Below, one piece after another: positions 62,001 to 64,000 of a DNA stretch of 64,000 bases. A program made the position numbers. How positions within the stretch are numbered: the stretch's first letter is position 1; the number at the start of each line of letters is the position of its first letter. Origin of the DNA: Escherichia coli (GTDB lineage Bacteria > Pseudomonadota > Gammaproteobacteria > Enterobacterales > Enterobacteriaceae); assembly GCF_030013595.1 (NCBI RefSeq), contig NZ_CP122768.1; one strand, given 5' to 3'.

Positions 62001-64000
62001 CGAGCGGTGACTTGAGTGTTTACAGTGCGGGTTCATTGGATCCTATCAATGAACAAACGGCATTTATTTCTACCGGCAAAGACAGCACTCTAAAAGCCAC
62101 AGGCACAACGGAAGGTGGTCTGTATCAATATGACCTGACACAGGGAGCTGATGGTAACTTTTATTTCGTAAAAAACACGCATAAAGCATCCAACGCCAGC
62201 TCCGTGATTCAGGCAATGGCAGCTGCTCCGGCTAACGTCGCTAATCTGCAGGCTGACACGCTCTCCGCCCGTCAGGATGCTGTCCGTCTGAGCGAAAATG
62301 ACAAGGGTGGCGTATGGATTCAGTACTTTGGCGGTAAACAGAAACATACCACCGCGGGAAATGCATCCTATGACCTGGATGTAAACGGTGTAATGCTGGG
62401 TGGTGATACCCGCTTCATGACTGAAGATGGTAGCTGGCTGGCCGGTGTGGCGATGTCTTCTGCGAAAGGTGACATGACCACCATGCAGAGCAAAGGTGAC
62501 ACTGAAGGTTACAGCTTCCACGCTTACCTGAGCCGCCAGTATAACAACGGTATCTTCATTGATACTGCTGCACAGTTTGGTCACTACAGCAACACGGCAG
62601 ATGTTCGCCTGATGAATGGTGGCGGTACCATCAAAGCTGACTTTAACACCAATGGTTTCGGTGCGATGGTTAAAGGCGGTTACACATGGAAAGACGGTAA
62701 TGGCCTGTTTATTCAGCCATATGCCAAACTGTCTGCGCTGACGCTGGAAGGTGTGGATTATCAGCTCAACGGCGTGGACGTTCATTCTGACAGCTATAAC
62801 TCTGTGCTGGGTGAGGCCGGTACGCGCGTGGGTTATGACTTCGCTGTGGGCAACGCGACCGTTAAACCTTATCTGAATCTGGCCGCACTGAACGAATTCT
62901 CTGATGGCAACAAAGTCCGTCTGGGTGATGAGTCTGTCAATGCCAGCATTGACGGTGCAGCATTCCGCGTGGGTGCAGGTGTACAGGCTGATATCACCAA
63001 AAACATGGGAGCATATGCAAGCCTTGACTACACCAAAGGTGACGACATTGAGAACCCGCTACAGGGTGTAGTTGGTATCAATGTGACCTGGTAAGAATAA
63101 AGCAGTCGGTTCCCCTGTCGACTGTTATACCCCCTGCAGGCAGCATACTGCTGCCTGCAGGCCATAAATATCCAGTATTCATGATGCTGGTTTTTTGCTG
63201 ATATTTAACCCGAACACTCCTGATACAGACTATTAATACAACCCTATCTGCGACAGATTTCATTTTCTGGATATATTATGAATGAACAAATCAAACAGGA
63301 TATCGATCTGATTGAGATTTTATTTTATCTGAAGAAAAAGATTCGTGTTATCCTTTTTATTATAGCTATCTGTATGGCAATGGTGCTGTTGTTTCTGTAT
63401 ATCAATAAAGATAATATAAAAGTGAGTTACAGCCTAAAAATAAACCAGACAACACCTGGCATACTTGTTAGCTGTGATAGCAATAATAACTTTGCCTGTC
63501 AGACCACAATGACTGAAGATGTTATTCAGCGAATTACTACATTTTTTCAGACCAGCCCAGATGTCAAGAACAGAGAAATAAAGCTGGAATGGTCAGGAGA
63601 TAAGAGAGATTTACCAACTGCTGAAGCGGAAATATCTCGCGTGCATGCGTCTATTATCAAATGGTATGCGTCAGAATACCATAATGGCAGGCAAGTTCTT
63701 GATGAGATACAAACGCCTTCAGCAATTAACAGTGAGCTTTATACAAAAATGATATACCTGACCAGGAACTGGTCATTGTATCCGAACGGTGATGGCTGTG
63801 TCACTATAAGCTCACCAGAAATAAAAAATAAATACCCTGCTGCCATTTGCCTGGCTCTGGGATTTTTTCTAAGTATTGTGATTTCTGTAATGTTTTGCCT
63901 TGTCAAAAAAATGGTAGATGAATACCAACAAAACTCTGGGCAGTAATAAACAGCATTCTGACAGAGAGTGCCTGTATAAAACTATAGTGACAATGACCGG

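What the first reader, a model, noticed from the sequence alone, without database searches (positions are those of the whole stretch)
63103..63161. Two stable hairpins without U-tracts downstream of the UpaB-like gene
Seen: AGTCG...CGACT (63104-63123) and a perfect 12-bp stem CCTGCAGGCAGC/GCTGCCTGCAGG with 5-nt loop (63133-63161); neither is followed by a T-run. Inference: mRNA-stabilising 3' structure, Rho-dependent termination region or protein binding site rather than an intrinsic terminator.
Basis: seen in the sequence. Interest (0 to 1): 0.2.

Follow-up and report, generated by a model that had tools for sequence, protein, structure and literature searches.

The report
Hairpins ending the hyxB (upaB) transcript

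Summary
Hairpin 1 (63101-63126) has 9 pairs including G-U, -10.9 kcal/mol. Hairpin 2 (63133-61) is a perfect 12-13-bp palindrome, -26.3 kcal/mol. Neither has a T-run, and both beat all shuffles.

It starts 10 nt after hairpin 2 and is a canonical intrinsic terminator.

The gene upstream is hyxB (upaB), the last gene of island PAI-X (ipbA/fimX, hyxR, hyxA, hyxB), which lies between betA and ykgH. The island spans 57176-63169. Hairpins 1 and 2 are therefore its last 70 nt, and the terminator is core DNA also present at island-free sites.

The palindrome is single-copy, unannotated and has no Rfam match. It occurs in 1881 of 5426 complete E. coli genomes and nowhere else in a related context.

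Its 5-nt loop is ATACT in 401 genomes, including this one, and the exact reverse complement AGTAT in about 1480. This is a loop inversion of the kind produced by replication template switching.

Most likely the hairpins are 3'-UTR stem-loops that protect the hyxB mRNA and back up the terminator. That function is inferred, not shown. The finding is ordinary and of low interest.

The parts
60764..63094 (+). hyxB (= upaB) autotransporter adhesin gene, last gene of PAI-X. The stop codon TAA is at 63092-63094. The annotated start in RefSeq relatives is probably downstream of the mechanical TTG start at 60764.
   Evidence: ORF list. RefSeq annotation 'outer membrane autotransporter HyxB' under 100%- and 98%-identical matches.
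63101..63126 (+). Hairpin 1: 9 bp (7 Watson-Crick plus 2 G-U) with an 8-nt loop, and no T-run after it. It is specific to the hyxB-sense strand.
   Evidence: Folds of -10.9 kcal/mol on the + strand against -7.3 on the - strand. The only variant seen among 22 genomes, A63121G in XH990, turns a U-A pair into U-G, which still pairs only in the + strand RNA.
63133..63161 (+). Hairpin 2: a perfect palindrome, CCTGCAGGCAGC-ATACT-GCTGCCTGCAGG. The loop exists in two mirror orientations across E. coli. Each arm contains the self-complementary octamer CCTGCAGG.
   Evidence: Loop is ATACT here and AGTAT in CFT073. 401 genomes hold this orientation and about 1480 the flipped one. Stems are invariant in 22 of 22 sampled genomes.
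63172..63197 (+).
   Evidence: Terminator scan. Fold of -8.2 kcal/mol, z -4.5. Identical sequence at island-free sites in strains S10 and 10035776-3.
57176..63169 (+). PAI-X island, 5994 bp: ipbA/fimX 58153-58716, hyxR 59046-59840, hyxA 59994-60755, hyxB. It lies between the betA 3' region and hairpin 3. The junctions share only a 2-nt AT microhomology, so the ends could equally be 57174-63167.
   Evidence: Island-free genomes align up to 57175 on the left and from 63168 on the right. Gene names come from RefSeq. The island is described in PMC3789825.
63278..63946 (+). ykgH, the core gene downstream. The hairpins and terminator separate it from hyxB.

Best explanation
Hairpins 1 and 2 are the transcribed 3'-untranslated tail of hyxB (upaB), the last gene of the PAI-X island. 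They occupy the final 70 nt of the island. RNA polymerase coming from hyxB reads through them and stops at the next element, a canonical hairpin plus U6 terminator at 63172-63197. That terminator belongs to the core genome, and the island sits 2 nt upstream of it. The finished mRNA would then end in three tandem stem-loops. The terminator hairpin is weak (-8 kcal/mol), whereas hairpin 2 is very strong (-26 kcal/mol). Hairpin 2 would therefore block 3'-to-5' exonucleases once the terminal hairpin is nibbled away, stabilising the hyxB message. It may also slow polymerase just before the terminator and help insulate ykgH. Separately, at the DNA level, the perfect palindrome has undergone at least one intramolecular template switch during replication. 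That event inverted its 5-nt loop (ATACT to or from AGTAT) without touching the stems. What is shown: the anatomy, the position at the island edge, the terminator, the single-copy status, the conservation and the loop inversion. What is inferred: the read-through, the stabilising role and the template-switch mechanism.
For: All three structures fold in the hyxB-sense strand with no competing fold (-45.8 kcal/mol, 66% paired). Hairpins 1 and 3 use G-U pairs, so they are stronger on the + strand. The one hairpin-1 variant keeps a pair only in + strand RNA. The terminator scan finds only hairpin 3 with its T6 tract on the + strand. The island boundary lies at 63168-63170, right after hairpin 2, and the terminator is identical at empty sites. 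Of 1894 genomes carrying the region, 1881 keep at least 28 of the 29 palindrome bases exact. The island has a second perfect palindrome without a T-run between hyxR and hyxA, at 59940-59966, which suggests such stem-loops are a habit of this transcription unit. The two loop alleles are exact reverse complements with identical stems. Loop inversion at perfectly paired hairpins through template switching is documented, including in bacteria (PMC8794818), and quasipalindrome template switching is established in E. coli (PMC7202029).
Against: There are no transcript data, so no 3' end, read-through or half-life was measured. Hairpin 2 is fully Watson-Crick and gives no strand information. No compensatory change supports it. 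Its invariance (0 of 24 sites) is no greater than that of the neighbouring hyxB coding sequence (4 of 179, Fisher p = 1.0), although it is lower than the core spacer (14 of 80, p = 0.036). Conservation could therefore simply reflect the island's low diversity. The hairpins stay perfect in O157-type strains where hyxB is a deletion pseudogene, so they are not visibly tied to an intact gene.
Confidence: 0.5

Rival explanations
1. The hairpins are a functionless leftover. Hairpin 2 would be the stem of the terminator hyxB had in the island's previous context, with its U-tract lost at the junction. It survives because the island is young and little diverged, and because template switching between the arms keeps a palindrome perfect without any selection.
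For: Hairpin 2 ends 8 nt from the island boundary. Stem invariance is no greater than in the adjacent coding DNA. The hairpins persist unchanged next to hyxB pseudogenes. Template switching can maintain perfect stems (PMC8794818).
Against: Two separate stable hairpins occur in tandem, and a third perfect one lies between hyxR and hyxA, which is more than one relic would explain. Hairpin 1 is strand-specific for the hyxB sense. No donor sequence is known, and PAI-X is reported as exclusive to E. coli (PMC3789825).
Confidence: 0.27
2. Hairpin 2 is itself a non-canonical terminator or strong pause site that ends most hyxB transcripts before hairpin 3. This could happen alone or with a factor such as NusG or Rho acting on paused polymerase.
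For: It is a very stable GC-rich stem of -26.3 kcal/mol. An A/U-rich stretch, CCAUAAAUAU, follows it.
Against: It fails the U-tract criterion, with only 3 U in the 8 nt after the stem. A proper terminator follows 10 nt later. There is no unstructured C-rich loading site for Rho between the stop codon and the hairpins.
Confidence: 0.12
3. The palindrome works as double-stranded or cruciform DNA. It could be a binding site for a dimeric protein such as the island's LuxR-type HyxR, or a recombination site used when the island was gained or lost, or acted on by the island's IpbA/FimX invertase.
For: It is a perfect 29-bp dyad holding two copies of the 8-bp palindrome CCTGCAGG, centred 21 bp apart, and these are the only two copies in the 64-kb window. 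It sits at the very edge of an island that lacks direct repeats. The loop is found in both orientations.
Against: No matching sequence exists at the left end of the island or anywhere else in E. coli genomes. It does not resemble the hyxS inverted repeats that FimX acts on. A 5-bp spacer is too short for recombinase-mediated inversion (inference). The site lies downstream of the operon rather than at a promoter. Each loop orientation is fixed with its own flanking SNP haplotype, so there is no sign of ongoing switching.
Confidence: 0.08
4. The hairpins are a chance occurrence with no structural meaning.
For: Short inverted repeats are common in intergenic DNA.
Against: No shuffle folds as well (0 of 200). 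A 13-bp perfect stem exceeds the maximum of 11 bp seen in 30 shuffled windows. The loop inversion itself implies that the arms pair in vivo.
Confidence: 0.02

Closest known systems
Protective 3'-UTR stem-loops placed before a terminator (for example REP-type mRNA stabilisers in E. coli operons; from general knowledge)
   Same: Stable GC-rich stem-loops without a U-tract, lying directly downstream of a stop codon in the sense strand and upstream of the real 3' end.
   Different: They are single-copy and specific to the island, not members of a repeated family, and show no similarity to the REP consensus. The stabilising effect was not measured.
Intrinsic (Rho-independent) terminators
   Same: Hairpin 3 with its T6 tract fits the definition fully. 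Hairpin 2 has a terminator-like stem and loop.
   Different: Hairpins 1 and 2 lack the U-tract that defines the class.
Hairpin-loop inversions from replication template switching (PMC8794818; spacer inversion between inverted repeats, PMC8604942; quasipalindrome mutations in E. coli, PMC7202029)
   Same: The arms are perfect, and the alleles differ only by the exact reverse complement of the loop, with loop length and stems unchanged.
   Different: Here it is a population-level polymorphism of an intergenic hairpin at a pathogenicity-island edge (401 against about 1480 genomes), not a change in rRNA or miRNA or a reporter mutation. The number of events, one or two, is unresolved.
Fim-type invertible switches (fimS, hyxS, ipuS), flipped by FimX/IpbA encoded in the same island
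   Same: A segment bounded by inverted repeats is found in both orientations, and the recombinase gene lies 4.4 kb away.
   Different: The inverted segment is 5 nt rather than about 300 bp. The repeats are unrelated to those of hyxS. Orientation is fixed per lineage rather than mixed.

Membership tests
Intrinsic (Rho-independent) terminator | GC-rich stem-loop with a 3-8-nt loop, downstream of a gene in the sense strand | tested here: met
   Hairpin 2 has 12-13 bp and a 3-5-nt loop. Hairpin 3 has 8 bp and a 3-nt loop.
Intrinsic (Rho-independent) terminator | U-tract (at least 5 T within 8 nt) starting 0-2 nt after the stem | tested here: not met
   Not met for hairpins 1 and 2, which are followed by TTATACCC and CCATAAAT. 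Met only by hairpin 3, which is followed by TTTTTTGC.
REP/BIME and other repeated extragenic palindromes | Many dispersed copies per genome that share a consensus | tested here: not met
   There is one locus per genome in 5426 E. coli genomes. The second 'place' reported is the palindrome matching its own opposite strand. The window holds no other copy and Rfam gives no family match.
Template-switch hairpin-loop inversion | Alleles differ by the exact reverse complement of the loop, with stems and loop length unchanged | tested here: met
   ATACT against AGTAT with identical 12-bp arms. The genome counts are 401 against about 1480.
Template-switch hairpin-loop inversion | Recurrence (homoplasy) on the strain tree | tested here: inconclusive
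   Only three local haplotypes exist, and a single flip can explain them. Flank trees place the window's ATACT allele among AGTAT strains, but recombination could produce that.
Site-specific invertible switch (fimS/hyxS type) | Invertible segment of some hundreds of bp, flanked by repeats recognised by the recombinase, with mixed orientations within a strain | tested here: not met
   The segment is 5 nt. The arms are unlike the hyxS repeats at 58715-58747 and 58988-59020. Orientation is fully linked to the flanking SNPs.
Rho-dependent termination region (rut site) | About 70-80 nt of unstructured, C-rich, G-poor RNA | tested here: not met
   In 63095-63171 the C/G ratio is 1.35 and 66% of the 3' UTR is paired. 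The most C-over-G-biased 78-nt stretch starts only at 63191, after the terminator.
3'-UTR mRNA-stabilising stem-loop | Stable stem-loop between the stop codon and the transcript's 3' end | tested here: met
   Hairpins 1 and 2 lie between the TAA at 63092-63094 and the terminator at 63172-63197. The position of the 3' end is predicted, not measured.
3'-UTR mRNA-stabilising stem-loop | Removing it shortens the mRNA half-life | not testable with these tools
   This needs rifampicin-chase measurements on deletion mutants.

The most novel reading that the evidence does not exclude
Hairpin 2 might not be an RNA element at all. It could be a DNA hairpin site involved in how PAI-X was gained or lost. 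The island is a 6-kb block with no integrase of the usual kind, no direct repeats and only 2 nt of microhomology. It sits exactly between a perfect palindrome at its own edge and a terminator hairpin in the target. That layout would suit a single-strand hairpin-guided or replication template-switch insertion or deletion. The loop flip would then be a by-product of the same in vivo hairpin extrusion.
Probability: 0.05. Interest if true: 0.55.

Novelty: new member of a known kind. Interest (0 to 1): 0.17.

Why it matters
The practical value is modest. The work fixes the right-hand boundary of PAI-X to the base. It shows that hyxB/upaB borrows a core-genome terminator. It also supplies an unannotated 3'-UTR structure that anyone making upaB constructs or deletions should keep or remove on purpose. 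The loop inversion is a clean natural example of a template-switch mutation at a perfect palindrome in E. coli. It is also a three-base cluster that SNP pipelines will miscount as three independent substitutions, and the two loop forms could serve as a lineage marker for PAI-X. None of this changes how terminators or pathogenicity islands are understood.

Tried and rejected
- **Rfam.** An E-value search of 62500-64000 gave only noise: a mir-6511 and a picornavirus IRES hit on the bare palindrome, far below the gathering scores.
- **Repeat family (REP/BIME-like).** Rejected. There is one locus per genome.
- **Other species.** An exact-pattern scan of one genome per 100,044 species returned only a GC-rich stretch in a Spirochaetaceae MAG that shares no flanking sequence with the E. 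coli locus. The metagenome scan returned three E. coli-like contigs.
- **Matching end at the left island boundary.** None found. There are no terminal inverted or direct repeats beyond AT.
- **Selection on the stems from diversity.** Inconclusive. The stems have 0 of 24 variable sites, but the neighbouring hyxB coding sequence has only 4 of 179.
- **Recurrent flipping.** Synthetic haplotype queries found no genome with ATACT plus T63163 plus T63169, or with AGTAT plus C63169. One flip is therefore enough locally, and recurrence is not claimed despite the flank trees.
- **Loop flipping of the other island palindrome (59940-59966).** Not seen in 4 sequences.
- **Minus-strand ORF 63078-63263 (61 aa).** Its translation looks like noise and it was not pursued.
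- **Primary papers.** The papers on PAI-X and UpaB (Bateman 2012 and 2013, Allsopp 2012) are not in the held library. I could not check whether they mention a terminator.

Full report
**1. The observation**

AGTCG at 63104-63108 pairs with CGACT at 63119-63123. In RNA the helix extends to nine pairs, 63101-63109 with 63118-63126, two of them G-U, around an 8-nt loop.

CCTGCAGGCAGC at 63133-63144 pairs perfectly with GCTGCCTGCAGG at 63150-63161 around ATACT. One further A-U pair gives 13 bp and a triloop.

| Element | Energy (kcal/mol) | z-score | Shuffles as good |
|---|---|---|---|
| Hairpin 1 | -10.9 | -4.7 | 0 of 200 |
| Hairpin 2 | -26.3 | -5.4 | 0 of 200 |
| Whole 131-nt stretch | -49.6 | -6.3 | 0 of 200 |

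The 12-mer occurs only twice in the window, as the two arms. In 30 block shuffles of the window no perfect stem exceeded 11 bp. Neither hairpin is followed by a T-run.

**2.

Ten bases after hairpin 2 lies a third hairpin, CCAGTATTCATGATGCTGG at 63172-63190, followed immediately by TTTTTT at 63191-63196. It is the only terminator-like site the consensus scan reports on the + strand in 62800-64000. It folds at -8.2 kcal/mol, z -4.5.

**3. Genomic setting**

The window is E. coli. A 501-nt query around the finding matches 5169 of 5426 complete E. coli genomes. RefSeq names the genes there hyxB (outer membrane autotransporter, = upaB) and ykgH. In CFT073 the gene order is betA, ipbA (= fimX), hyxR, hyxA, hyxB, ykgH. 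This is the island PAI-X, described as four genes, variably present and exclusive to E. coli (PMC3789825).

Genomes without the island, such as BL21, join the betA 3' region directly to window position 63168. Reading both junctions against three empty sites places the island at 57176-63169, a length of 5994 bp. The junctions share only an AT microhomology.

- Hairpins 1 and 2 are therefore the last 70 nt of the island.
- Hairpin 3 and its T-tract are core DNA.
- The same CCAGTATTCATGATGCTGGTTTTTT is present at the empty sites of strains S10 and 10035776-3, about 105 nt after betA.
- BL21 carries a G in place of T63188, which abolishes the stem.
- The island thus sits 2 nt upstream of a pre-existing terminator, which hyxB now uses.

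**4. Copy number, annotation and distribution**

The 76-nt hairpin region is found in 1894 genomes, always at this one locus. The second 'place' reported per genome is the palindrome matching its own opposite strand. No feature is annotated under it in any record listed, and Rfam has nothing above noise.

An exact-pattern scan of one genome for each of 100,044 species found only an unrelated GC-rich stretch in a Spirochaete MAG. The metagenome scan found three E. coli-like contigs. The element is therefore not a REP-type repeat. It is a single-copy feature of PAI-X.

**5. The loop inversion**

Aligning the window with CFT073 showed identical stems, but the loop is ATACT here and AGTAT there. 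AGTAT is the exact reverse complement of ATACT.

A 41-nt query with asymmetric flanks separates the two forms:

- 1881 genomes hold at least 28 exact bases of the 29-nt palindrome.
- 401 of them hold it in the window's orientation.
- About 1480 match only on the opposite strand, which is the flipped form.

Twenty-two sequenced loci confirm the pattern base by base.

Three simultaneous substitutions that happen to produce the reverse complement are best explained by a single inversion. Intramolecular template switching at a perfectly paired hairpin produces exactly this footprint and has been documented, including in bacteria (PMC8794818). Related spacer inversions and quasipalindrome mutations are described in PMC8604942 and PMC7202029.

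I tested whether flips recur. Flank trees put the window's ATACT allele among AGTAT strains. Against that, queries for the 'missing' combinations found none. Only three local haplotypes exist: ATACT with T63163 and C63169; ATACT with C63163 and T63169 (the window's rare type); and AGTAT with T and T. A single flip plus two point mutations explains these haplotypes, and recombination could explain the trees. At least one event is certain, and more are unproven. Orientation is fixed per lineage, so nothing suggests active switching by the island's invertase. A 5-nt spacer is in any case too short for that (inference).

**6. Evidence on function**

Hairpins 1 and 3 contain G-U pairs. They are therefore stronger in the hyxB-sense RNA than in the antisense: -10.9 against -7.3 kcal/mol for hairpin 1. 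The only hairpin-1 variant seen, A63121G in XH990, changes a U-A pair to U-G and keeps pairing only in that strand. This points to RNA structures in the hyxB transcript.

Hairpin 2 is fully Watson-Crick and gives no strand information. Its stems are invariant in the sample (0 of 24 sites). The island's 3' end is so uniform, however, that this is not distinctive.

| Region | Variable sites | Fisher test against hairpin 2 stems |
|---|---|---|
| Hairpin 2 stems | 0 of 24 | - |
| Adjacent hyxB coding sequence | 4 of 179 | p = 1.0 |
| Core spacer 63198-63277 | 14 of 80 | p = 0.036 |

(All.)

The hairpins also stay perfect next to hyxB pseudogenes in O157-type strains. The island holds another perfect 12-bp palindrome without a T-run between hyxR and hyxA, at 59940-59966. 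This suggests that such stem-loops are a feature of this transcription unit. Rho-dependent termination is unlikely: 66% of the 3' UTR is paired and the C excess is mild.

**7. Best explanation and rivals**

- **Best explanation (confidence 0.5).** The hairpins are 3'-UTR stem-loops. They are read through before termination at hairpin 3 with its U6 tract. The very stable hairpin 2 acts as a barrier to 3' exonucleases behind a weak terminal hairpin, and perhaps as a pause that helps termination and insulates ykgH.
- **Relic (0.27).** A functionless remnant of a former terminator, kept perfect by low divergence and by template switching.
- **Non-canonical terminator or pause at hairpin 2 (0.12).**
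- **DNA-level protein-binding or recombination site (0.08).**
- **Chance (0.02).**

None of these can be separated further without transcript mapping and deletion experiments.

**8. Comparison with known kinds, and novelty**

The element behaves like the protective stem-loops found upstream of terminators in many bacterial 3' UTRs, but it is not a member of any repeated family. Hairpins 1 and 2 fail the U-tract criterion for intrinsic terminators, whereas hairpin 3 meets it. The loop polymorphism meets the definition of a template-switch loop inversion.

I could not read the primary PAI-X and UpaB papers. I therefore cannot say whether this 3' region has been mentioned before. It is unannotated in RefSeq. 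I rate it a new member of a known kind.

**9. Verdict**

The biology is ordinary. The one feature worth recording is the mirror-image loop, which divides PAI-X-bearing E. coli 401 to about 1480. Interest is 0.17.

Noticed in passing
window 59940-59966: A second perfect 12-bp palindrome, GCACGCTGTACA-GCC-TGTACAGCGTGC, lies between hyxR and hyxA and also lacks a T-run. Its loop has the same orientation in the window, CFT073, 1604D011 and metagenome contig L006. It may be an intercistronic stem-loop of the hyxRAB transcript.
   Followed up: partly
window 58715-58747 and 58988-59020; L006 about 5996-6070 (minus-strand numbering): These are the inverted repeats of the hyxS phase switch upstream of hyxR. 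They include a 15-bp perfect palindrome at 58987-59019. Metagenome contig L006 carries different sequence on one side of this repeat, as expected if the switch is in the other orientation.
   Followed up: partly
L003 4990-5050 (strain 1604D011); window 61289-63124: A rare hyxB deletion allele, seen in about 5 genomes, removes 61289-63124. It ends 8 nt before hairpin 2, whose left arm is degenerate there (5 substitutions within 20 nt) while the loop is ATACT. The clustered changes next to the junction are unexplained and may reflect a complex template-switch event.
   Followed up: partly
L016 and L017 (O157:H7, CDC#03-98); L029 (AGR5151): Other decay forms of hyxB occur. O157-type strains have an internal deletion of 61879-62915 and an internal stop in ykgH. 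AGR5151 has an IS1 insertion plus a deletion running through the hairpins into ykgH.
   Followed up: partly
window 63278-63946 (ykgH): ykgH is strikingly polymorphic. 186 of 669 sites vary among 22 genomes, against 4 of 179 for the adjacent hyxB 3' end. The window's own allele is rare: only 4 records are at least 99% identical over 62900-63400.
   Followed up: no
window 57107-57117 with 57157-57167: A long-range 11-bp stem, TGAGAGTTACC paired with GGTAACTCTCA, lies in the betA 3' region just upstream of the island's left junction. It is also present at island-free sites. In island-bearing strains betA is cut off from the hairpin 3 terminator that follows it at empty sites.
   Followed up: no
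L001 4005-4030 (BL21) against window 63172-63197: The BL21-type island-free allele has G in place of T63188 and C in place of T63191, and the terminator hairpin no longer folds (MFE -3.6 kcal/mol, no better than shuffles). Other island-free strains keep the hairpin intact.
   Followed up: partly
window 7149-7183: A perfect 13-bp palindrome, TGTGTGAAATTGT-GAGCGGATA-ACAATTTCACACA, looks like the lac operator region. It is one of only four perfect stems of 12 bp or more in the window.
   Followed up: no
L020 (strain 21F61), aligned to window 63191-63196: In this strain the T-tract after hairpin 3 reads ATATTT instead of TTTTTT. It is a natural variant that should weaken termination between hyxB and ykgH.
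   Followed up: no
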